Shown one piece after another: positions 1 through 55,426 of a DNA stretch of 64,000 nucleotides (its first letter is position 1; the number at the start of each line of letters is the position of its first letter). This stretch comes from Botryllus schlosseri (lineage: Eukaryota). Position numbers and translations under genes: made by a program. Below the pieces are notes generated by a model that was given only the letters and a program-made list of their open reading frames with translations, was not told the DNA's origin and made no database searches. Location of the stretch: positions 22,074,001 through 22,138,000 of the forward strand of contig CM119372.1 of assembly GCA_051294905.1 (NCBI GenBank), in the 5' to 3' direction.

Positions 1-889
1 GTAATTTACCAACTTTAAATCCATTCGCGGATGTACTAAAGGTAAATCCAAATAATCCAAAATGAAATATTTGGACTTTGACATAGTCTGAATTGAAATA
101 GATTGACAAACATGACTACCAACTTTCCCGCAGTCCCATTTCGATATTATATGCACATTGATTTGAAACAAGTAATGAAACATTACAACTCTATTCGCGA
201 TCCCGCTTTCCGTTTGTCAAAGAGATATTTTAACATCTTTCCATACTCAAAAGAATTCTTCACAACATTAACAATTGTTAAAAATCTAGTTTTCACTTAC
301 TTGATTATATCACTACAACTCACAAACTTGAATTAATTCATCCTGGCTGTATTCGTATGATCGGTCTTTTTTATTCGATTGTAAAGGTCGTTACTATTCT
401 GAAGACAAAGTATTTACTAATCGGTACATATACGATTTGACTTGGACATATTATATTTTGAGTATACGAGATTTGAATGTCCGAACAATAACTGAGAATT
501 AATTTATCACAATTAAATCCGTATATTACAGCGTAAAAGATATTTGGGGGTCAGCAACTCTGTACGGTCGTAGTTACAACCACATTAACTAATCTACCCA
601 GGCAACTCGTCATGATCATTCCTGAAATCAACACAAACACGACCACTGACTTGAGTTAACCGCGAAACAGCATCAAGTTTTAAATCCGCTTGCAGCTGAC
701 GGATTATTCGAATACATCGATGGAGAATATTATTGAACTCGTCGGTATTGTTACTTCAACAAATTACACCGACTGCGAAAGTTAATATTGAATGGTAAGA
801 CTTGATCACATATTTGTTGATCACAGACATGACAAAAAAACATGACCGAGATTTTATAAACTAGTCATATTACTCTACACATCTATCAA

Positions 890-1600
890 TATCAAAATGC
901 GAGTCATCCAATTTTTCTACTAAAGTAACATTGCACTTTCGGATTCGGTATAGTCATACAAATTGTATTAAATCCAACATCAAAACAAAAGGATTTTTTT
1001 TAGTTTATTGAAATCAAATCATTCGTCTTCGACTTGTGCTTTTCTAGATTGCACGCAACAATTCGTTACGAATGAGCTGTAACCAAAGTTAAGAATTCTT
1101 TGTGTCCACAGATATAGAAGATGAATATAGCTAACACAATCACGAATCGACGTTTCAGAGTATTTCACGGATGTAATAAACTTGTTAGTGTCGCCTATCT
1201 AAAAGTATGCATGCGTTCGATTTCCATACCGACTGTTGCGATGTTTAGGATTCGCTTACCATGACCAAGAGTGAGGATTTAACATCAATGTCGTTACTGG
1301 AGGTATTCACAACAGAGAATCGAAACATTACACAGTGTGAAAATATATCTTTGATATCAAAGCACTATCCCAAGTACACGATTAATACTCAACTCCGTTC
1401 ACACTTTCTATAGAACGTGCTAAATGTAAAATATCACGAGGTTGCACTCTAAGACTTTGATCATTACAAAAGTAAATTGAATATGTTTGCTCGACGCATT
1501 CAATTCAACTAGAAATGTCTAGGGCACAACAATCGTAATATTAAGGAAGTACTTGCTACACTGTAATTCACTTAACGTGTTTTGCATTGTTGTTCATTTG
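890..1600 (+). pseudogene. Highly decayed A32-like packaging ATPase relic (mirror copy at 7962-8672, minus)
   Basis: Colinear fragments across stops and frameshifts: HP..F; SDSV*SY (three single-nt changes from Walker A SGSGKSY); EL*PK; LLEVFT..ENISLI; LNVKY..VAL*DFDHYKSKLNMFARRI (cf. recalled Polinton motif LNAHYIVLFKNPRDKSQI..LARQ). Span ~230 codons. Recognised by eye only. Confidence 0.4.
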
Positions 1601-2194
1601 TAGTATTGATTGTTTTTGAACCCCCAAATAATAATTCTCGACATGAAACCAAACCGCTGAAAGTCGTTACCATCACAACGAAACAATGTGAACGATGTTT
1701 GCCAAATGTACCCTATGGTTAGGTGTACTAGAATTATTTGTGTAACACATACACCGACAATGTAATCGAAAATTTTTCCGTTGTCATTCGCTAAAGTAAA
1801 TGTCATCACAATACTCTGTCACTAAAGATCTTACTTGTATCTGATTGAATCACCGATAATTAACTCGCTAAATCAAACCATAAGGAAATTTCACTCACTC
1901 ATCAGATATGAAACAGCGTCGCTTAGTCGGTGTAGATCGTTTTTCTAAATGCAAATCATACCTGACCAACAGAAAACAATTTTCACTCACCTTGTAATGA
2001 AACCAAGTGGTGGACCTTCGTTCAATATTTTGTTTGTGTCAAATACTTTGCAATAAACACAGTGGAGTGGTCGAGCTTTACAGCAGCAGACTGTAATCTG
2101 TAAATCAAGCTTACATCCGACTTGTAACTGTATCGTTTACCTAACCGAGTTGTATGCACAGTTTGATATTTTTTGTTATTTGGTAATTGCTGAA

Positions 2195-2910
2195 TATACT
2201 ACTTCGAAATACTCCCTTGAACGTAATTTCCATCGTCGTAATAATCGAAGTACATTTGTGTCGAATTCGTAACAGCCGACTATGACATGATAAATTTTTG
2301 ACAAGTTATGCTTGGAAGATTGGTTGTATATCACGAAAAATAATTACCGCTCATATTGATACTGTTATCCATTGTTCGGTATTTTCAAACGAGTAAAATT
2401 TATTACTCGAGTTACTCCGCTTAATGCAAATGTAAACACAACCGTCTTTCAACATCGCAAAGACATCGGTACAAAGTATACAATCAAACGCAACAAGTTT
2501 TACTTTCGTAGGTTGTGTATGGTTATCCTGCATAACTCATTTCTTACCAAAGCCATATGAAATAAATTCATGTTACACGAAAATATTCACTCATGCTACA
2601 AACCTGTACAATGATTGGTGGTGCTTTCAAACTGTTTCGATACCTCAAGAACTTTATTGTCTGAATGGTTGTTCATGTATCGTAATAATCAAGTAGTTCA
2701 ACACAGAACTAGTATTAACAGAAACACCAGAGTTGTTTACACAAAAGTTTGTATGTGTACAGTATACGAATACCATGTGTAAGTCCAGCACAATTGTGGT
2801 ATCCATACGAGTTTAGTTAACACAATTTACGACACCGAGGTCGCGTCATCTTTCGTAAGACAACAAACCAAGGCTTCAGGATATGTCCATGTCATAGCAA
2901 TGAATCGGCT
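2195..2910 (+). pseudogene. Highly decayed retroviral-like c-integrase relic (mirror copy at 6652-7367, minus)
   Basis: Colinear fragments: YTTSKYSLERNFHRR (cf. YTLHKP.RR.F.RR); *QVML (WQADL); NNYR/HIDTVIHCSVFS (GYKYILTVIDVFS); TPL; RNKFY (GKEFY); EINSCYTKIFTHAT (E.KAS.VERFNRTL); NN...HRTSI; SGY. Many stops and frameshifts. Recognised by eye only. Confidence 0.45.
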
Positions 2911-5414
2911 ACTCCAACAACAGAGTGCATATGTTTTCTAGTTACGGTGCTTACATCTTACACACAAATCAATCTACTTTGCTAACGAAAAGTGGTGAGT
3001 CATCATATGGTTATCCTCACTAGTAAAACATACTATCATACAAAATGGTCGTTATAGTTTGCACACCAACGGTACATCGTACAAGTAACAAGTCTCGAGA
3101 ATCCAGTTATTCAAAAAACGTGAAAGTATTTCTACACCAAGTCGTTATGTTGACGAAAGCGTATATTGTAATATCATGATCGATTTGCATTCGTTGGTCA
3201 CAAACTGTCACTACTCTAAATAATTCTTTTTCACTCAAACACAAACGCATACTTGTCACCATTCGTTTTCATCAAGTACGAGTTCAAGAAACTTACTACG
3301 ACATGAATTTTTATTTTTATGTTGTGTAAATAGGTAATAATTAATTCAAGTAACACTATATCAACATCATCGAGTTGTGCTAATAGATTTACATGTGGTC
3401 TTGTGGTTTTCATCGGGACATACAGCACGAACTAACTGTAGACTCCTCTCTGTTGTACAGCTACTCGGTAATCGAAATGCATTAACATGTAAACAACGAT
3501 CTTGTTTCGTCACACCAAAAATATGTTCACTGTCGCGATACTCCGCACAAGACGTGCATAGCCTTTTCACACTCGTAATAGTATACCAACGTCAAGCGAT
3601 AACGTTTAACAAGACCAACGACACTGAACCCACGACGTTTACCTATGTAAAATTACCACTTTCACTAACCAGTCCATCGTTTACCTGACTAAACATATTA
3701 TTTTCCTTTGGAGATCTGATGTTTACCCAGAGTAAGAAACCTTTTTCACTTGGAAATCTATTTTTTCTTTGGCTAACAAACCTTTTTTCACTTGTTAATA
3801 TATTTTTTCCTTGGCTAACAAACCTTTTTTCACTTGGAAATCTATTTTTTCTCTGGTTAACAAACCTTTTTCCCCGGGTAACAAACCTTTTTCCCTGAGC
3901 AACAAGCCATTTTCACTTGGTGGTCCGTCGTTTACCTGAGTAAAAATATCAGTTTCCTTTGGGGATCTGGCGTTTACCCAGTGTAACAATACATTTTCGC
4001 TTGGAACAATACTTTTACCTAGAGTAACTAATCATTTTCTCCTGGGTAACAATCCCTTTTCGTCTGGAAACTATCATTTAACTGAGTACCAATATCGTTT
4101 TCACTTGGAAATACATTTTTTCCCTGGGTAACAATACCATTTTCGTTTTGAAAACTGACAACCACACCGGTCAATTTGATATTTTTGTATATTGTTACAA
4201 CGAACAGTGACGGAAATATACACAGACTACCGGTTTCAGAGTACACCCCATCGGTCGTATCACGTCAATATCATCGGTTAACCACATACAATATACTCTT
4301 GTACACCGAAATGCACGCTTTGGAAAATTGGACAATAGGCTGCGATAGTTCTGTGATGTCCGGGTTCGTGCTTTAGATTTTCCAGAGTCAAAATGTCTGA
4401 ATAAAACACCTCCTCGACGACGGTTGGTATGTGGATAACGGTGTTCGGAAAACGGTTGGATTTATGTCACCCATCGCGATAACAATTCCAGGTCGAGTTT
4501 TCCTCCCGCATGTTTACTATATTGTGTCTTTATTGGTCAATGTATGTCTCGACATTCAGTTTGAAATCGGAAATGATAAAGTATGTAACCGGATCCGGAT
4601 ATCAACTCTGAATCGATAAACCAATGAACAATATTCAAAGTAAACATGTTACACCCTGTGTTTCCACGAAAAAATACCATCCAGACATACGTCGCGCTTG
4701 TTTGCCCACATCAGTATACGCGCAAATGGAGGTGTGTGACATTGCATGCAATGTGTTGGTATACAAACATCGATCCACAGACATTATCATAGCCGTTGTA
4801 TACCAACACATTGCATGCAATGTCACACACCTCCATTTGCGCGTATACTGATGTGGGCAAACAAGCGCGACGTATGTCTGGATGGTATTTTTTCGTGGAA
4901 ACACAGGGTGTAACATGTTTACTTTGAATATTGTTCATTGGTTTATCGATTCAGAGTTGATATCCGGATCCGGTTACATACTTTATCATTTCCGATTTCA
5001 AACTGAATGTCGAGACATACATTGACCAATAAAGACACAATATAGTAAACATGCGGGAGGAAAACTCGACCTGGAATTGTTATCGCGATGGGTGACATAA
5101 ATCCAACCGTTTTCCGAACACCGTTATCCACATACCAACCGTCGTCGAGGAGGTGTTTTATTCAGACATTTTGACTCTGGAAAATCTAAAGCACGAACCC
5201 GGACATCACAGAACTATCGCAGCCTATTGTCCAATTTTCCAAAGCGTGCATTTCGGTGTACAAGAGTATATTGTATGTGGTTAACCGATGATATTGACGT
5301 GATACGACCGATGGGGTGTACTCTGAAACCGGTAGTCTGTGTATATTTCCGTCACTGTTCGTTGTAACAATATAAAAAAATATCAAATTGACCGGTGTGG
5401 TTGTCAGTTTTCAA

Positions 5415-5885
5415 AACGAAAATGGTATTGTTACCCAGGGAAAAAATGTATTTCCAAGTGAAAACGGTATTGGTACTCAGTTAAATGATAGTTTCCAGAC
5501 GAAAAGGGATTGTTACCCAGGAGAAAATGATTAGTTACTCTAGGTAAAAGTATTGTTCCAAGCGAAAATGTATTGTTACACTGGGTAAACGCCAGATCCC
5601 CAAAGGAAACTGATATTTTTACTCAGGTAAACGACGGACCACCAAGTGAAAATGGCTTGTTGCTCAGGGAAAAAGGTTTGTTACCCGGGGAAAAAGGTTT
5701 GTTAACCAGAGAAAAAATAGATTTCCAAGTGAAAAAAGGTTTGTTAGCCAAGGAAAAAATATATTAACAAGTGAAAAAAGGTTTGTTAGCCAAGGAAAAA
5801 ATAGATTTCCAAGTGAAAAAGGTTTCTTACTCTGGGTAAACATCAGATCTCCAAAGGAAAATAATATGTTTAGTCAGGTAAACGA
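5415..5885 (+). repeat. Degenerate ~21-bp tandem minisatellite inside the palindrome arm (mirror copy at 3677-4147)
   Basis: Units such as GAAAAAGGTTTGTTACCCGGG / GAAAAAGGTTTGTTAACCAGA / GAAAAAATAGATTTCCAAGT. Translates as 7-aa repeats ENGLLLR-EKGLLPG-EKGLLTR. Confidence 0.85.
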
Positions 5886-8800
5886 TGGACTGGTTAGTGA
5901 AAGTGGTAATTTTACATAGGTAAACGTCGTGGGTTCAGTGTCGTTGGTCTTGTTAAACGTTATCGCTTGACGTTGGTATACTATTACGAGTGTGAAAAGG
6001 CTATGCACGTCTTGTGCGGAGTATCGCGACAGTGAACATATTTTTGGTGTGACGAAACAAGATCGTTGTTTACATGTTAATGCATTTCGATTACCGAGTA
6101 GCTGTACAACAGAGAGGAGTCTACAGTTAGTTCGTGCTGTATGTCCCGATGAAAACCACAAGACCACATGTAAATCTATTAGCACAACTCGATGATGTTG
6201 ATATAGTGTTACTTGAATTAATTATTACCTATTTACACAACATAAAAATAAAAATTCATGTCGTAGTAAGTTTCTTGAACTCGTACTTGATGAAAACGAA
6301 TGGTGACAAGTATGCGTTTGTGTTTGAGTGAAAAAGAATTATTTAGAGTAGTGACAGTTTGTGACCAACGAATGCAAATCGATCATGATATTACAATATA
6401 CGCTTTCGTCAACATAACGACTTGGTGTAGAAATACTTTCACGTTTTTTGAATAACTGGATTCTCGAGACTTGTTACTTGTACGATGTACCGTTGGTGTG
6501 CAAACTATAACGACCATTTTGTATGATAGTATGTTTTACTAGTGAGGATAACCATATGATGACTCACCACTTTTCGTTAGCAAAGTAGATTGATTTGTGT
6601 GTAAGATGTAAGCACCGTAACTAGAAAACATATGCACTCTGTTGTTGGAGTAGCCGATTCATTGCTATGACATGGACATATCCTGAAGCCTTGGTTTGTT
6701 GTCTTACGAAAGATGACGCGACCTCGGTGTCGTAAATTGTGTTAACTAAACTCGTATGGATACCACAATTGTGCTGGACTTACACATGGTATTCGTATAC
6801 TGTACACATACAAACTTTTGTGTAAACAACTCTGGTGTTTCTGTTAATACTAGTTCTGTGTTGAACTACTTGATTATTACGATACATGAACAACCATTCA
6901 GACAATAAAGTTCTTGAGGTATCGAAACAGTTTGAAAGCACCACCAATCATTGTACAGGTTTGTAGCATGAGTGAATATTTTCGTGTAACATGAATTTAT
7001 TTCATATGGCTTTGGTAAGAAATGAGTTATGCAGGATAACCATACACAACCTACAAAAGTAAAACTTGTTGCGTTTGATTGTATACTTTGTACCGATGTC
7101 TTTGCGATGTTGAAAGACGGTTGTGTTTACATTTGCATTAAGCGGAGTAACTCGAGTAATAAATTTTACTCGTTTGAAAATACCGAACAATGGATAACAG
7201 TATCAATATGAGCGGTAATTATTTTTCGTGATATACAACCAATCTTCCAAGCATAACTTGTCAAAAATTTATCATGTCATAGTCGGCTGTTACGAATTCG
7301 ACACAAATGTACTTCGATTATTACGACGATGGAAATTACGTTCAAGGGAGTATTTCGAAGTAGTATATTCAGCAATTACCAAATAACAAAAAATATCAAA
7401 CTGTGCATACAACTCGGTTAGGTAAACGATACAGTTACAAGTCGGATGTAAGCTTGATTTACAGATTACAGTCTGCTGCTGTAAAGCTCGACCACTCCAC
7501 TGTGTTTATTGCAAAGTATTTGACACAAACAAAATATTGAACGAAGGTCCACCACTTGGTTTCATTACAAGGTGAGTGAAAATTGTTTTCTGTTGGTCAG
7601 GTATGATTTGCATTTAGAAAAACGATCTACACCGACTAAGCGACGCTGTTTCATATCTGATGAGTGAGTGAAATTTCCTTATGGTTTGATTTAGCGAGTT
7701 AATTATCGGTGATTCAATCAGATACAAGTAAGATCTTTAGTGACAGAGTATTGTGATGACATTTACTTTAGCGAATGACAACGGAAAAATTTTCGATTAC
7801 ATTGTCGGTGTATGTGTTACACAAATAATTCTAGTACACCTAACCATAGGGTACATTTGGCAAACATCGTTCACATTGTTTCGTTGTGATGGTAACGACT
7901 TTCAGCGGTTTGGTTTCATGTCGAGAATTATTATTTGGGGGTTCAAAAACAATCAATACTACAAATGAACAACAATGCAAAACACGTTAAGTGAATTACA
8001 GTGTAGCAAGTACTTCCTTAATATTACGATTGTTGTGCCCTAGACATTTCTAGTTGAATTGAATGCGTCGAGCAAACATATTCAATTTACTTTTGTAATG
8101 ATCAAAGTCTTAGAGTGCAACCTCGTGATATTTTACATTTAGCACGTTCTATAGAAAGTGTGAACGGAGTTGAGTATTAATCGTGTACTTGGGATAGTGC
8201 TTTGATATCAAAGATATATTTTCACACTGTGTAATGTTTCGATTCTCTGTTGTGAATACCTCCAGTAACGACATTGATGTTAAATCCTCACTCTTGGTCA
8301 TGGTAAGCGAATCCTAAACATCGCAACAGTCGGTATGGAAATCGAACGCATGCATACTTTTAGATAGGCGACACTAACAAGTTTATTACATCCGTGAAAT
8401 ACTCTGAAACGTCGATTCGTGATTGTGTTAGCTATATTCATCTTCTATATCTGTGGACACAAAGAATTCTTAACTTTGGTTACAGCTCATTCGTAACGAA
8501 TTGTTGCGTGCAATCTAGAAAAGCACAAGTCGAAGACGAATGATTTGATTTCAATAAACTAAAAAAAATCCTTTTGTTTTGATGTTGGATTTAATACAAT
8601 TTGTATGACTATACCGAATCCGAAAGTGCAATGTTACTTTAGTAGAAAAATTGGATGACTCGCATTTTGATATTGATAGATGTGTAGAGTAATATGACTA
8701 GTTTATAAAATCTCGGTCATGTTTTTTTGTCATGTCTGTGATCAACAAATATGTGATCAAGTCTTACCATTCAATATTAACTTTCGCAGTCGGTGTAATT

Positions 8801-10684
8801 TGTTGAAGTAACAATACCGACGAGTTCAATAATATTCTCCATCGATGTATTCGAATAATCCGTCAGCTGCAAGCGGATTTAAAACTTGATGCTGTTTCGC
8901 GGTTAACTCAAGTCAGTGGTCGTGTTTGTGTTGATTTCAGGAATGATCATGACGAGTTGCCTGGGTAGATTAGTTAATGTGGTTGTAACTACGACCGTAC
9001 AGAGTTGCTGACCCCCAAATATCTTTTACGCTGTAATATACGGATTTAATTGTGATAAATTAATTCTCAGTTATTGTTCGGACATTCAAATCTCGTATAC
9101 TCAAAATATAATATGTCCAAGTCAAATCGTATATGTACCGATTAGTAAATACTTTGTCTTCAGAATAGTAACGACCTTTACAATCGAATAAAAAAGACCG
9201 ATCATACGAATACAGCCAGGATGAATTAATTCAAGTTTGTGAGTTGTAGTGATATAATCAAGTAAGTGAAAACTAGATTTTTAACAATTGTTAATGTTGT
9301 GAAGAATTCTTTTGAGTATGGTAAGATGTTAAAATATCTCTTTGACAAACGGAAAGCGGGATCGCGAATAGAGTTGTAATGTTTCATTACTTGTTTCAAA
9401 TCAATGTGCATATAATATCGAAATGGGACTGCGGGAAAGTTGGTAGTCATGTTTGTCAATCTATTTCAATTCAGACTATGTCAAAGTCCAAATATTTCAT
9501 TTTGGATTATTTGGATTTACCTTTAGTACATCCGCGAATGGATTTAAAGTTGGTAAATTACCAAAATGATTGAATATTATCGGGTTAGAGATAGTTGGTA
9601 TTGATTCTATAACTGTTAAAACAGCGGCGTGGAATGTGTGAATAATTCAATGTGACTGAAAGTCGGCGTCAGTAATATTCAGGTTACGGTCGAATCAAAG
9701 GATCACGTTAAAAAGATTTCTCAAATTAATTAGAATTGTACCGGATCAACACATTCAAATACGAATCAACTTGAGCTGTGTAGTAAGTTTCATTTCAAGT
9801 TTGACATATTGACACATTACTTGTATTTTCGCATGATTCTTATCATACAACTAAAGTCAACCACGTTCCGAAGTGTCAAACATATAGCGACCACCAGAAA
9901 GTGCCAAATTGTTGGTTTACGAATCACCGTCTGCGACGACTCTGGGACAAACTAGTTACGGAAATATTACCTTGTGAGCGATCGGTATGTCTGTAACACC
10001 AAATCATGAGCGATCGCTATGTCTGGAGCATTACCCTGTGAGCGGTCGTAGGATTTTAAAATGATATCACACCCTTTTGAATAAGCGTTCACTTCACAAA
10101 GGATTAGGGTTAGAGCGGAAATAAGTGACAATTTGTCGCTATTCAAGTTACCGACACTGGCGGTCTGTTATTCGTTACTTATTAAATCGTACGAGTGAAA
10201 TCAAGCTCTGTGCCAAACTGCTTACGAAAATTTCACCGCGTGAGCGATCGATATGCCTGTAACATCAAGTCGCGTATGTCTGAGACATTATCTTGTCAGC
10301 GAACGCAGGGTTTGCAAACTATTTCACACCTATTTGGAGTGTTAATATGTGAACGCGGCTATTGTTGGTATTGGAATCGCCGTCTACGACGGTTCCGTGG
10401 TAAACCAAGCGACTGATTCCTAGATTTAGCAAACTATTTCACACCCTTTTTGGTGAAAGTACGACATGCCGCTAGCATTCTATCAACGAAAGTACGAATC
10501 ATCGCCGCGTCCACAAGAATAACGATATATCATTGTCGTACTCACCGCAAACGTTGGGATTAACTCGAATCGGTCATATATAATAATTTGTAATATACAC
10601 ATTAACTAAGAATCAATCACGTGACTATTTACTATTCCTGATACTTCTTCAACACAGCGCGAGGGTTGACTATACCCGAAAGGG

Positions 10685-10964
10685 CGAATCACCGCTACCG
10701 CCTATAGCAAAAAAGGTGAGTCATGACCGCGAGTATTTCAATACGAGTCACCGCCGCAGCCTATACCTGAAAGTACGAGTCACGACCCCGATTTTTCAAT
10801 ACGAGTCACCGCCGCAGCCTATACCCGAAAGTACGAATCACGGCCGCACCCATAAGAACCCATTACGAGTCACCACCACAAGGGGGGTCTGAAAGTACGA
10901 GTCACCACCCCGGGTTTTCAATACGAGTCACCACCCCGCCCATAAGCCACAATGGCGAATCGCG
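10685..10964 (+). repeat. Subterminal array of 10 CGARTCAC-like motifs
   Basis: Motif starts at 10685, 10717, 10744, 10776, 10802, 10834, 10866, 10898, 10924 and 10956; spacings 32, 27, 32, 26, 32, 32, 32, 26, 32. Confidence 0.9.
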
Positions 10965-10983
10965 ACCGATCATACTAACTACT

Positions 10984-11024
10984 TACACCCTAGGGTGTAC
11001 GACCACCCCGGTTGAAGAGCACTG
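10984..11024 (-). mobile_element. 41-bp terminal piece of a hAT MITE interrupted by the giant element
   Basis: Reverse complement CAGTGCTCTTCAACCGGGGTGGTCGTACACCCTAGGGTGTA matches 53834-53874 with one mismatch and stops abruptly at the ACTACT terminus. Confidence 0.9.
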
Positions 11025-11124
11025 GGCTAGTGTATTGTAGGATATCAATTTCTTTCATCTTCTCGACGCTTCGTATTCGATCCTCTATTTTTGCCGATAA
11101 TAAGAGAATGTATAGCATGTCGCT

Positions 11125-11504
11125 CAGAATTGTCAAACTCAACTGACGTCGCGGGTCGAATTCAAATATACAGATCACTCGCGGGCCGCACCAGTCAAAT
11201 GATTCCTAAATATTACGAACCCTAAACTCAGTATATGCACTTTTTCGCATTCTCGGAATTGAAAGTTATTGTCAGCGATTTTCTCCTGACGATAACTACA
11301 ATCACAACTCCGCTGTCGCGTTGTTATAATGTGGCCTTTGAACATACTCGAAATTTGCTATCTTGAAGGAATATTTATTAGTGGTATTTCTTACTGCAAA
11401 TTCGAAAATGTGTTGGATAAAATCACGCAATTTTCACGATATACTCAGAATTTCTTCGCGGGCCGAATGAAATCATTTGGCGGGTCGTACGTTTGACACC
11501 CCTG
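11125..11504. mobile_element. hAT-type MITE
   Basis: CAGAATTGTCAAAC...GTTTGACACCCCTG ends, CGCGGGCCG internal motifs, 8-bp TSD ATGTCGCT/ATGTAGCT. Confidence 0.7.
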
Positions 11505-14189: not shown

Positions 14190-42719
<28,530 letters not shown>

Positions 42720-53774: not shown

Positions 53775-53833
53775 GACTAGACGGTCCGCTATATGAGCAG
53801 TTTATAGAAGAGAGAAACAGTGATATATTAGAC

Positions 53834-55426
53834 CAGTGCTCTTCAACCGGGGTTGTCGTACACCCTAGGGTGTACCAGAACTTTCAAAGGGTGTACCACT
53901 CGGATGGGGTGTACAGGGGTGTACCAGATCCACATTATGATTAACCGATCATACGATGACTATAGCTATCACAAAAATACGCCAGTTTATGCTTCAAAAC
54001 AGAATGACTGGATGTGTAATATCGTACAATGTGATGTCATAAGCAAATGTTTCTAATTATTCAACCTTTGGTAATGGGACTTATTACTTCCTTTTCGAGC
54101 AGAGCAGGGTGTAGTTAGCATGTGTTCAGCTTGCGATATCTGTCTGATGATTCTCGAGGAAACCACCGCTAAATCTCGGACATTTTGAATTTGTGCTTCC
54201 TGCGGCCAGCTTATGAATAGTGCAGAATACATAGCCTACTTACGCAGCCACGGGGTCGAGTTTGCGAACCACTGCGTTAGATGGTGGTCCAGTAAACTCG
54301 AGCCCTTCTTCGTATTATCATTTACTATACGTTGCAGTCTTGCTCAAATGTCCATCCTTATTTCGGCTACGTCAGGGGTGCTCAACCTGCGGACGTACGG
54401 CCTCATTCAGCATAACCATAATTTTGCGATCTTCTACACATATTTAAATTAGCGTGTGTTGGCGGCCGTCATTATGTAACCAATTGTTGGTGGTTCTAGT
54501 CTCGGCTCTGCCATGTTTCTATGTGTCGGAGGATTATGGTTCCTCGTCGCCGACCCCCTGTTAACGTAGCGTCTTGAAAAGCCCAGAAGAAGAGTTAACC
54601 GAGCTTCAAAGTCAGCAGCAAAGTCCTGAAAGTGGACGCACGTTAGCGAGAGAGAATGAAGAATGGGAGTGCGCGTGCAAGCAAAAGTCGTCCTCATTAC
54701 CCAAAGCAAAAATACTAAACTTTAGGAAATGCACTGTCGTGGCGCACAAATTCTAAACAGGCGATTATCACCACTGTCATTGATGTGTAATAAAATATTA
54801 TTATTTAACAATACAAACAATCCTGGTGGGAGGCCAAGAAATAACAACATGCAACTAAGTGATTAATAGGAACCGCAAGATGCATCATCATTAATATTGT
54901 ACCCAATATTTTCGAAAACACCCTCCATCAGCTCTACGGGTTAATCTGATCACGTGAGCTGAGAATTAATAAATTTTTGACAATAATATGTGAAACTACC
55001 AACATTTTCGATGAAATCCATTCAAGGGGCAAAATTTTCGCGCTCTGCGCGACTACACACATAATCCTAGTGTCTTTTCTTGACATTTATACTCGCGATT
55101 TTGGTACATAAATTATATGTTGTAAGCCTGCTGGGATGTTTTGCTTCTACAGTAAGAAAATTTGCGCATTGCATATCTCAAGAAATAAGTGAAGGCACAG
55201 AACACCACAAGGGCTCTCCGTGGTGTTAAGTTCCCAGTATCAAATTTCATATGAGCATTTGTCATCCATGCGCCATGGCGAATCCCCGTTGGAATCCGGA
55301 CGTATTGTATATATGTAATCAAAATGCGGCTTTCGGCGTTATCGGTGTATTATACGGTCCGGGGTGTACGAGTTTTGAGAAAATGTTAAAAGGGTGTACC
55401 ACGACGAAAAAGGTTGAAGAGCACTG
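53834..55426. mobile_element. Non-autonomous hAT element (same family as the target of the giant palindrome)
   Basis: TIR CAGTGCTCTTCAACC, GGGTGTAC repeats, flanks TATTAGAC / TATTAGTG-TATTAGAC. Confidence 0.85.

What the first reader, a model, noticed from the sequence alone, without database searches (positions are those of the whole stretch)
1..10983. Giant fold-back element: an apparently integrated palindromic (snap-back) Polinton/Maverick derivative of ~12.4 kb
Seen: arms of at least 4766 bp at ~99.9% identity around a 29-bp apex. The right arm continues 1.4 kb past the mirrored part and ends sharply in ACTAACTACT inside a known hAT MITE. Established: Polintons/Mavericks have AG-initiating (often AGTAGT) TIRs and 6-bp TSDs, encode a c-integrase and packaging ATPase, and replicate by protein priming from their termini. 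Inference: one end of a Polinton was copied back on itself, so the whole element is one TIR pair with two identical origins and attachment ends. It could be replicated, integrated and perhaps packaged in trans, like a copy-back defective-interfering virus genome.
Basis: partly seen in the sequence, partly recalled or inferred. Interest (0 to 1): 0.9.

Follow-up and report, generated by a model that had tools for sequence, protein, structure and literature searches.

The report
Loop-deleted giant palindromic Maverick-dependent transposon
This is a real 12.4-kb gene-less mobile element built as one huge palindrome; it is a centre-deleted member of an abundant family that uses the end sequences of virus-like Maverick/Polinton elements living in the same genome.

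Summary
The element is C2:22072579-22084983 (window -1421 to 10983), 12,405 bp. It has two 6,188-nt arms with 10 mismatches, a 29-nt spacer, AGTAGT...ACTACT ends and a TACACC duplication. An uninterrupted paralogous site lies at window 53869-53874.

It is not a one-off snap-back. All 11 other long copies examined are palindromes, most with 6.3-6.7-kb arms; nine have a ~0.9-kb loop homologous between copies. A loop marker occurs 458 times in the genome. The window copy lacks about 1.1 kb at the centre, and its junction is unique.

No genes were found in the arms or the loop. Only the terminal ~300 bp resembles a Maverick. A 15.8-kb autonomous copy has the same first 21 nt, a 6-bp duplication, a chromodomain integrase, an ATPase, and polymerase-like and capsid-like ORFs.

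Two ~7-kb single-arm relatives exist; one is collinear with a whole arm. The two arms of each copy are each other's closest relatives in 9 of 9 copies.

Replication and packaging in trans remain inference, and reads could not test the apex. The scan has met this family before on other DNA (e1-7786796, e1-7786340).

The parts
1..4766 (.). Left arm, the part inside the window. The arm begins at window -1421 (C2:22072579), so the full arm is 6,188 nt.
   Evidence: There are 10 mismatches and no indels against the right arm over 6,188 nt.
4767..4795 (.). 29-nt spacer ('apex'). It is the asymmetric remainder of the left inner arm after loss of about 1.1 kb: the family's ~0.9-kb loop plus about 70 nt and 100-110 nt of the two inner arm ends.
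   Evidence: window 4000-4795 aligns to L011 7339-8134, and window 4796 onward aligns to L011 9226 onward. Copy D gives the same picture; the junction 27-mer (up to 1 mismatch) occurs once in the genome.
4796..10983 (.). Right arm, 6,188 nt, non-coding. It is collinear over its whole length with the single-arm element L037.
   Evidence: no open frame longer than 115 aa; 0 of 24 arm ORFs of 60 aa or more reach a Pfam cut-off; no Maverick protein remnant; collinear with L037.
3701..3921 (.). Mirror image, in the left arm, of the right arm's internal 42-bp repeat array at 5641-5861.
   Evidence: pairs I2 and I4.
5641..5861 (.). Internal 21/42/84-bp tandem repeat array of the right arm.
10683..10983 (-). 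Maverick-type terminal region. The first 21 nt read from the end (AGTAGTTAGTATGATCGGTCG) are identical to the autonomous copy. It also holds 32/58-bp subterminal repeats at 10718-10848.
   Evidence: 76% identity over 236-242 nt to both TIRs of L034/L035; tandem repeats; the 21-mer occurs 237 times forward and 235 times reverse in the genome, against 0 for the control.
10984..10989 (.). Right copy of the 6-bp target-site duplication TACACC. The left copy lies at window -1427 to -1422, outside the window.
53815..53940 (-). Paralogous copy of the flanking repeat with an uninterrupted target and a single TACACC at 53869-53874.

Best explanation
The element is a non-autonomous, gene-less transposon that depends on Maverick/Polinton elements of the same genome. 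It belongs to a young, abundant family whose members are giant palindromes: two ~6.3-6.7-kb arms and a ~0.9-kb unique loop, typically ~13.4 kb in total. The window copy is a member that lost ~1.1 kb at the centre, leaving a 29-nt spacer.

Shown: it is an insertion with a 6-bp duplication. It carries the Maverick (AGT)2 end motif. It shares its 21-nt terminus and subterminal repeats with autonomous 15.6-16.5-kb Mavericks that have open integrase frames.

Inferred, step 1: the Maverick chromodomain integrase inserts it in trans.

Inferred, step 2: the architecture arose as an inverted (copy-back or tail-to-tail) dimer of a ~7-kb single-arm non-autonomous element that lost its right end.

Inferred, step 3: the arms are kept alike because a displaced single strand would snap back into a 6-kb hairpin during protein-primed replication by the helper polymerase. 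That hairpin would rebuild a duplex terminus and expose mismatches to repair. Arm-to-arm gene conversion in the chromosome would give the same pattern.

Inferred, step 4: the central deletion is a break-and-rejoin or template-switch event at the hairpin tip, either in place or just before insertion.
For: Insertion. TACACC lies on both sides, and a paralogous site is uninterrupted.

Family. The 10 copies fetched all have long inverted arms at 98.8-99.98% identity. Nine are clean and one (I) is rearranged. The centre of a 17.2-kb copy shows the same build. Eight of those 10 have perfect 6-bp duplications and AGTAGT ends. Marker counts in the genome: terminal 21-mer 237+235, loop 28-mer 250+208, mid-arm 30-mer 166+166, with 0 for every control.

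Window copy as a centre deletion. The mid-arm markers are 5,809 bp apart here, against mostly 6.7-7.4 kb elsewhere.

Maverick link. C2:23192168-23207958 (15,791 bp) has a GTCGTT duplication, the same first 21 nt and a 344-bp TIR. It also has an rve+chromo integrase and an AAA/A32-like ATPase. Its 1,163-aa ORF sits nearest PF03175 clusters (21 of 30 hits, score 0.95). Its 432-aa ORF sits nearest clusters that carry the DJR-like domain in 14-30% of members. Five of the 42 terminus pairs that I paired enclose an integrase match.

End motif and 6-bp duplication of Mavericks: passages of PMC8097293 and PMC10045372.

Single-arm relatives: L037 and L036.

Arms in lock-step. The left and right arms are sisters in 9 of 9 copies. 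Identity is 99.68-100% within a copy and 97.7-99.7% between copies.
Against: No read-level support for the apex could be obtained.

Pfam PF03175 finds nothing in the genome and does not match the 1,163-aa ORF, so 'polymerase' rests on a language-model look-alike.

Only 5 of the 32 integrase matches of the relevant group on contigs C1-C5 lie inside listed terminus pairs (my count). The helper relation is therefore shown for a subset only.

The L037 body-to-right-end junction is unique in the genome. L037 could thus be a one-arm deletion product of an old dimer rather than an ancestor.

Short copies also integrate: L036 has a perfect duplication. Size is therefore not required for integration.

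The loop has no detected source.
Confidence: 0.8

Rival explanations
1. The 29-nt apex is an assembly error. The real locus would hold an ordinary family member with the ~0.9-kb loop, and the assembler skipped the centre of a long palindrome.
For: The junction is unique in the genome. No read or contig laid could be shown to bridge it, because Logan's contigs there are 60-110 nt pieces of a high-copy repeat.
Against: The missing piece is asymmetric and cuts about 70 nt and 100-110 nt into the two arms, which is not what a collapse at identical sequence gives. Other copies also vary at the centre: marker spacing of 6,044 bp and about 2.9 kb, and copy C with 4.1-kb arms. The arms keep 10 real differences.
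Confidence: 0.07
2. A unique snap-back of the end of an autonomous Polinton happened at or just before this insertion.
For: The ends and the duplication are those of a Maverick. The arms are nearly identical.
Against: All 11 other long copies examined share the palindromic build, and the arms are 97-99% alike between most copies. The arms hold no Maverick gene remnant, and only ~300 bp match the autonomous copy.
Confidence: 0.03
3. A foldback transposon family is moved by a transposase that is not a Maverick integrase, and the shared ends are coincidence or capture.
For: The family is gene-less. Long-TIR foldback families exist in other superfamilies: Galileo of the P superfamily (PMC4168063, search listing) and Drosophila FB (recalled).
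Against: The 21-nt terminus is identical, similar subterminal repeats extend over 240-350 bp, and the same 6-bp duplication is seen in an autonomous Maverick. IS3EU/GingerRoot, the other group with 6-bp duplications, ends in TA..TA (PMC10045372 passages), not AG..CT.
Confidence: 0.04
4. This is a rival for one step only. The arms stay alike through arm-to-arm gene conversion of the integrated copy, as in large sex-chromosome palindromes (recalled), and not through a hairpin stage of replication.
For: Left and right arms being sisters in 9 of 9 copies is equally expected under this reading. It needs no virus-like replication.
Against: It does not explain why the unpaired loop is 5-10% diverged between copies whose arm bodies differ by only 1-2%. 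The hairpin model does not fully explain that either.
Confidence: 0.35

Closest known systems
Maverick/Polinton elements and their non-autonomous derivatives
   Same: 6-bp target duplication, the (AGT)2//(ACT)2 end motif and terminal inverted repeats (PMC8097293 passages). It shares its terminus with autonomous copies encoding a chromodomain integrase, an ATPase, and polymerase-like and capsid-like ORFs. Derivatives without polB that are still mobile are reported in butterflies (preprint 10.1101/2025.02.07.637071, passages).
   Different: It has no gene at all. Its TIRs are 6.2-6.7 kb, which is about 93-99% of the element, against 46-1,447 bp (mean 402) in intact vertebrate Mavericks and ~2 kb in the butterfly elements. 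Only ~300 bp is Maverick-like.
Snap-back and copy-back defective viral genomes
   Same: A highly symmetric palindrome carrying two copies of one genome end. This matches the definition of snap-back genomes in PMC13506859 (passages). AAV 'snapback' DI genomes are described in PMC8235507 (start of abstract in the search listing). Adenovirus incomplete particles with inverted left-end duplications (Daniell 1976) are recalled; the paper is not held.
   Different: Those are transient by-products in infected cells. This is a germ-line family with at least 458 integrated copies, and its arms are not a truncated helper genome.
Foldback transposons (Drosophila FB, Galileo and similar)
   Same: Long inverted arms make up most of the element. 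Internal and subterminal tandem repeats are present, there is little or no coding capacity, and movement is in trans.
   Different: Galileo belongs to the P superfamily (PMC4168063 listing). The FB 9-bp duplication is recalled. Here the duplication is 6 bp with Maverick ends, and the arms are several times longer and mostly unique sequence rather than repeat arrays.
Large chromosomal palindromes with arm-to-arm gene conversion (recalled, no paper read)
   Same: Arms more than 99.7% alike within a copy while copies diverge.
   Different: Those are not mobile and have no target duplication or defined termini.

Membership tests
Polinton/Maverick sensu stricto (autonomous) | [quoted passage not shown] | tested here: not met
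   No open frame longer than 115 aa in the arm. 0 of 28 ORFs reach a Pfam cut-off. No tblastn remnant of 72 Maverick ORFs apart from spurious frames over the TIR repeats.
Maverick-dependent non-autonomous element | 6-bp target-site duplication | tested here: met
   TACACC lies on both sides, with an empty paralogous site. Eight of 10 other copies have a perfect one.
Maverick-dependent non-autonomous element | Maverick end motif 5'-(AGT)2 ... (ACT)2-3' | tested here: met
   AGTAGT...ACTACT. The motif is as given in PMC8097293.
Maverick-dependent non-autonomous element | Termini shared with an autonomous element of the same genome that encodes the integrase | tested here: met
   C2:23192168-23207958 has the same first 21 nt, 76% identity over ~240 nt, a GTCGTT duplication and an rve+chromo ORF of 359 aa. 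Five terminus pairs enclose integrase matches.
Maverick-dependent non-autonomous element | Actual mobilisation, replication or packaging by the helper's proteins | not testable with these tools
   Inference only.
Snap-back defective genome | Near-complete palindrome carrying two copies of one genome end | tested here: met
Snap-back defective genome | Generated by polymerase copy-back during replication of the parent genome | tested here: inconclusive
   A single-arm relative is collinear with a whole arm, but its junction is unique, so the direction of descent is open.
IS3EU/GingerRoot (the other 6-bp-duplication group) | TA..TA (sometimes TG..CA) termini (PMC10045372) | tested here: not met
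   The termini are AG..CT.
Drosophila-type Foldback (FB) | 9-bp duplication and arms made of tandem repeats (recalled) | tested here: not met
   The duplication is 6 bp. Tandem repeats cover only a few hundred nt of a 6.2-kb arm.

The most novel reading that the evidence does not exclude
The palindromes are satellite genomes of an endogenous Maverick virus, not just integrase-hitchhikers. A ~7-kb defective genome doubled itself head-to-head. The dimer (median 13.4 kb, about 85% of the 15.6-16.5-kb helper) then outcompeted the monomer because it fits the helper's replication and capsid. Each cycle passes through a single-stranded 6-kb snap-back hairpin that keeps the arms identical. The germ line of this animal would then record an ongoing virus and defective-interfering-particle arms race, with at least 458 integrated 'DI genomes'.
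Probability: 0.25. Interest if true: 0.85.

Novelty: new variant of a known kind. Interest (0 to 1): 0.6.

Why it matters
Mavericks/Polintons are thought to be viruses as well as transposons, but their replication is mostly inferred. Here a gene-less family uses Maverick ends and outnumbers its apparent helpers. Its TIRs are more than four times longer than the longest reported for intact vertebrate Mavericks, and its arms evolve in lock-step. This gives a natural system for asking whether Maverick DNA passes through displaced single strands and capsids.

The family adds at least ~6 Mb (458 x ~13 kb, about 1.2% of 495.5 Mb) of long perfect palindromes to the genome. That is relevant to genome stability, to hairpin RNA and small-RNA production, and to assembly quality.

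The 'unique snap-back' reading is replaced by 'centre-deleted member of an inherited palindromic family'.

Tried and rejected
Reads. The look-up of sequencing runs and read laying on window 4600-11300 with four runs gave only Logan contigs of 60-110 nt from a high-copy repeat. A loose end at 10984 in run X17 (2 contigs) matches neither the element nor the expected empty site and was left uninterpreted.

Pfam searches of the whole genome. PF03175 gave 0 matches and PF00770 gave 0 matches, and the control genomes rang for neither, so this does not show absence. PF04665 gave a single hit. It led to a different Maverick lineage (C11:4506703-4526063) whose ends (GTGACTACT...) are not those of the palindromes.

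Gene content of the arms and loop. Pfam found nothing at or above a cut-off. Rfam found 0 and tRNA search found 0.

PDB sequence search with the 1,163-aa ORF found nothing meaningful. My motif regex for polymerase motifs found none.

Chromosomal inverted duplication is rejected: the mirror stops exactly at the terminus and the flanks differ.

Counting L037-type monomers by their junction gave 1 hit, so no monomer family of that exact form exists.

Longer copies as candidate autonomous forms. The 17.2-kb copy is only a longer palindrome.

Literature. Four full-text searches found no description of giant palindromic non-autonomous Mavericks. Most subscription papers and Repbase are not covered, so this is not proof that none is in print. 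Daniell 1976 and Daniell & Mullenbach 1978 are not held.
Full report
OBSERVATION. The repeat finder gives inverted arms at 1-4766 and 4796-9561 with 29 nt between them. The window is G000:C2:22074001-22138000 in a 495.5-Mb assembly of 219 contigs. The 1.4 kb that the right arm has in excess (window 9562-10983) is mirrored upstream at C2:22072579-22074000, and the match stops at query position 1422, which is window 10983. A direct count gives 5 mismatches in the inner 4,766 nt and 5 in the outer 1,422 nt, with no indels. The arms are therefore 6,188 nt at 99.84% identity, the spacer is 29 nt, and the element is 12,405 bp.

The left junction reads ...ttctggTACACC|AGTAGTTAGTATGATCGG. The right junction reads ...CCGATCATACTAACTACT|TACACC|ctagggtg. 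The flanks themselves are not mirrored.

A second copy of the flanking repeat inside the window (53940-53815, minus strand) reads ...gaaagttctggTACACCctagggtgtacgac... with one TACACC. This serves as an empty site. A chromosomal inverted duplication and an assembly fold-back that includes the flanks are both excluded.

A FAMILY, NOT A SINGLE EVENT. The terminal 1.4 kb has many matches in the genome, and they lie in minus/plus pairs 8-14 kb apart. I fetched ten such pairs and compared each with itself on the opposite strand. Nine (A-H, J) are clean palindromes with arms 98.9-99.98% alike. Eight have arms of 6.3-6.7 kb around a unique centre of 888-976 bp. Copy C has 4.1-kb arms and a 1.4-kb centre. 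The tenth (I) is rearranged but still has long inverted arms. The centre of a 17.2-kb copy has the same build.

Eight of the ten have perfect 6-bp duplications, all different: CTCGGC, CCCGTT, GGCGTT, GTCGTG, GACCTT, GATGGC, AACGAC and CCCGTG. All eight have AGTAGT ends. B is unclear and I was not determinable.

Exact-pattern counts over the whole genome are as follows, each with 0 for the reversed control. The terminal 21-mer (up to 1 mismatch) occurs 237 times forward and 235 reverse. A loop 28-mer (up to 2 mismatches) occurs 250+208 times. A mid-arm 30-mer (up to 2 mismatches) occurs 166+166 times, nearly all in minus/plus pairs. The markers catch overlapping subsets, so 458 is a lower bound for loop-bearing copies.

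Of the first 100 terminus matches listed, I paired 42 plus/minus neighbours. Five enclose an integrase match (see below). The other 37 measure 6.9-17.2 kb, with a median of 13,426 bp, and 29 of the 37 lie between 11.6 and 14.8 kb. The integrase search scored only 144 of 770 candidates, so misses are possible.

THE WINDOW COPY IS A CENTRE DELETION. Against copy A, window 4000-4795 aligns to L011 7339-8134, and window 4796 onward aligns to L011 9226 onward. The window therefore lacks L011 8135-9225, which is 1,091 bp: the 912-bp loop, about 70 nt of the left inner arm and about 100-110 nt of the right. The 29-nt 'apex' is the stretch of left arm that outlasts its mirror. Copies B, D, E, F, G and H give the same picture.

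The junction 27-mer is unique in the genome, so nothing shows that the short-spacer form has itself multiplied. The mid-arm markers are 5,809 bp apart in the window against mostly 6.7-7.4 kb elsewhere. One other pair is at 6,044 bp and two are at about 2.9 kb, so central deletions recur in the family.

CONTENT. The arm has no open frame above 115 aa, and the inner arm plus loop of copy D has none above 173 aa. None of the 28 frames of 60 aa or more (24 from the window arm, 4 from the D loop) reaches a Pfam cut-off at E <= 0.1. Rfam and tRNA searches find nothing. Tandem repeats of 21/42/84 bp lie at 5641-5861, of 32 bp at 9966-10048, and of 32/58 bp at 10718-10848.

THE MAVERICK LINK. A Pfam A32-ATPase search gave one hit, in a 19.4-kb TIR-bounded Maverick-like element on C11 with an rve+chromo integrase. 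Its ends differ from those of the palindromes.

Searching the genome with its integrase gave 144 matches (770 candidates), of which 141 have no stop inside the matched stretch. They fall into identity groups near 95%, 74%, 65% and 47-49%. The last group holds 76 matches by my count.

Five matches of the last group lie inside terminus pairs: C2:23192168-23207958, C3:21012484-21028988, C2:20634793-20650377, C2:20718146-20733730 and C4:12050118-12078340. That is 5 of the 32 matches of that group on contigs C1-C5. The others presumably carry variant termini, as several palindrome sub-lineages do.

I fetched the first of these. It is 15,791 bp with a GTCGTT duplication on both sides. Its first 21 nt are identical to the window's terminus, and its first 30 nt are identical to copy H's. 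Its TIR is 344 bp at 100% identity, plus 309 bp more beyond an indel. Its ORFs include a 359-aa rve+chromodomain integrase and a 217-aa AAA/A32-like ATPase.

Its 1,163-aa frame has no Pfam match. The nearest Atlas clusters for that frame carry PF03175 (21 of 30 hits, score 0.95). Its 432-aa frame sits nearest clusters that carry the double-jelly-roll-like domain PF21738 in 14-30% of members, plus one Capsid_N cluster. These last two are look-alike leads, not alignments.

The window arm matches this element only over its outer ~240-300 nt at 76%. The other copies match over 240-350 nt at 72-84%. A tblastn of 72 Maverick ORFs against all arms and loops hits only frames that run over the TIR repeats.

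Passages of PMC8097293 give, for vertebrate Mavericks, 6-bp duplications and the end motifs (AG)3 or (AGT)2//(ACT)2. They give sizes of 12.7-24.6 kb (mean 16.9) and TIRs of 46-1,447 bp (mean 402). PMC10045372 gives 6 bp for Polinton, and TA..TA ends for IS3EU/GingerRoot, the other group with 6-bp duplications. The palindromes thus have Maverick ends and duplications, but TIRs more than four times the longest reported there.

SINGLE-ARM RELATIVES. Two short terminus pairs were fetched. L037 (C4:1950243-1957250, 7,008 bp) has a 359-bp TIR at 97.2% and flanks tgcgac/cacgac. It is collinear with the whole window arm from the terminus to the inner end (77-91% identity) and then runs straight into the right subterminal repeats. 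By eye, homology to copy D continues to within about 30 nt of D's arm end, and there is no loop homologue.

L036 (C3:21448695-21455609, 6,915 bp) has a 170-bp TIR and a perfect GTCGAT duplication, and it is partly collinear. Neither has a frame above 135 aa.

Each arm of a palindrome therefore equals a complete gene-less single-arm element minus its right end, which is what an inverted dimer would look like. Caveat: the L037 junction is unique in the genome. L037 could instead be a one-arm deletion product of an old, diverged dimer, and such lineages exist (copies I and J). The direction of descent is not settled.

ARMS IN LOCK-STEP. For a 1.9-kb mid-arm segment, left and right arms are 99.68-100% alike within a copy and 97.7-99.7% alike between copies. 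In a FastTree tree the two arms of a copy are sisters in 9 of 9 copies, with support 0.74-1.0. Copies I and J were left out because they had no HSP of 1,500 nt or more. Without homogenisation, arms would group by side.

Along the arm, mean pairwise identity among 8 copies is 96-99% from about 300 nt inward. It is ~76%, with many gaps, in the repeat-rich outer ~300 nt.

The loops of 9 copies are 90-95% alike, except for D/G/H at 99%. For D against A, transitions to transversions are 53:24 in the loop and 14:15 in the arm. This four- to five-fold excess of loop divergence is unexplained. A single-stranded loop in a hairpin stage is one idea. A recent sweep or exchange of arm sequence is another.

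MECHANISM. Integration in trans by the Maverick integrase is well supported. Three further steps are inferences: protein-primed replication from two identical ends, snap-back of the displaced strand, and repair of mismatches in the 6-kb stem. They fit the lock-step arms, but chromosomal gene conversion fits equally well. Packaging is suggested only by the length mode, which is about 85% of the helper's length. It is weakened by the fact that 7-kb elements also integrate.

READS. Four runs were laid. Their contigs are too short in this repeat to bridge the apex, so the assembly-error rival for the apex (not for the family) remains at about 0.07.

EARLIER NOTES OF THIS SCAN. e1-7786796 (a 13.6-kb palindrome with Maverick-like ends, other foldback types not excluded) and e1-7786340 (nested giant foldbacks, arms in lock-step) describe the same family on other DNA.

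LITERATURE. Four full-text searches found no report of such palindromic non-autonomous Mavericks. Repbase and most subscription papers were not searchable.

Noticed in passing
L032:604 to L033:9964 (C11:4506703-4526063): A 19.4-kb Maverick-like element with 359-bp TIRs at 98.6%, an A32-like ATPase and an rve+chromo integrase. Inside its TIRs it also holds frames with Death, BIR (IAP-like), caspase and ubiquitin-conjugating E2 domains, which may be apoptosis-related cargo.
   Followed up: partly
Loops of copies A, B, D-I and K (e.g. L017:8059-8992) against arm bodies: The unique loop is 5-10% diverged between copies whose arm bodies differ by 1-2%. It is also richer in transitions: 53:24 against 14:15. 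Unexplained.
   Followed up: partly
whole genome: There are at least four Maverick integrase lineages (about 95, 74, 65 and 47-49% identity to the C11 query). 141 of 144 matches have no stop inside the matched stretch, so Mavericks are numerous and young here. Pfam PF03175 nevertheless finds nothing in the genome.
   Followed up: partly
window 15510-15760: A small hairpin-like inverted repeat with 121-nt arms, 93% complementary and 9 nt apart.
   Followed up: no
L019:1190-1540 and L012:5625-5660: Copy E sits inside the subterminal repeats of another family member. A further AGTAGTTAGTATG terminus starts 13 nt after the right end of copy A. These are nested or adjacent insertions.
   Followed up: no
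window 10984: In run X17, two contigs that match the right flank are preceded by letters that are neither the element's end nor the expected empty site (table 7).
   Followed up: no
C1:28413349-28425568 and C5:6894398-6906689: Two other copies of 12.2-12.3 kb may also have shortened centres. The first shows only one inner-arm 65-mer hit. The second has a marker spacing of 6,044 bp.
   Followed up: no
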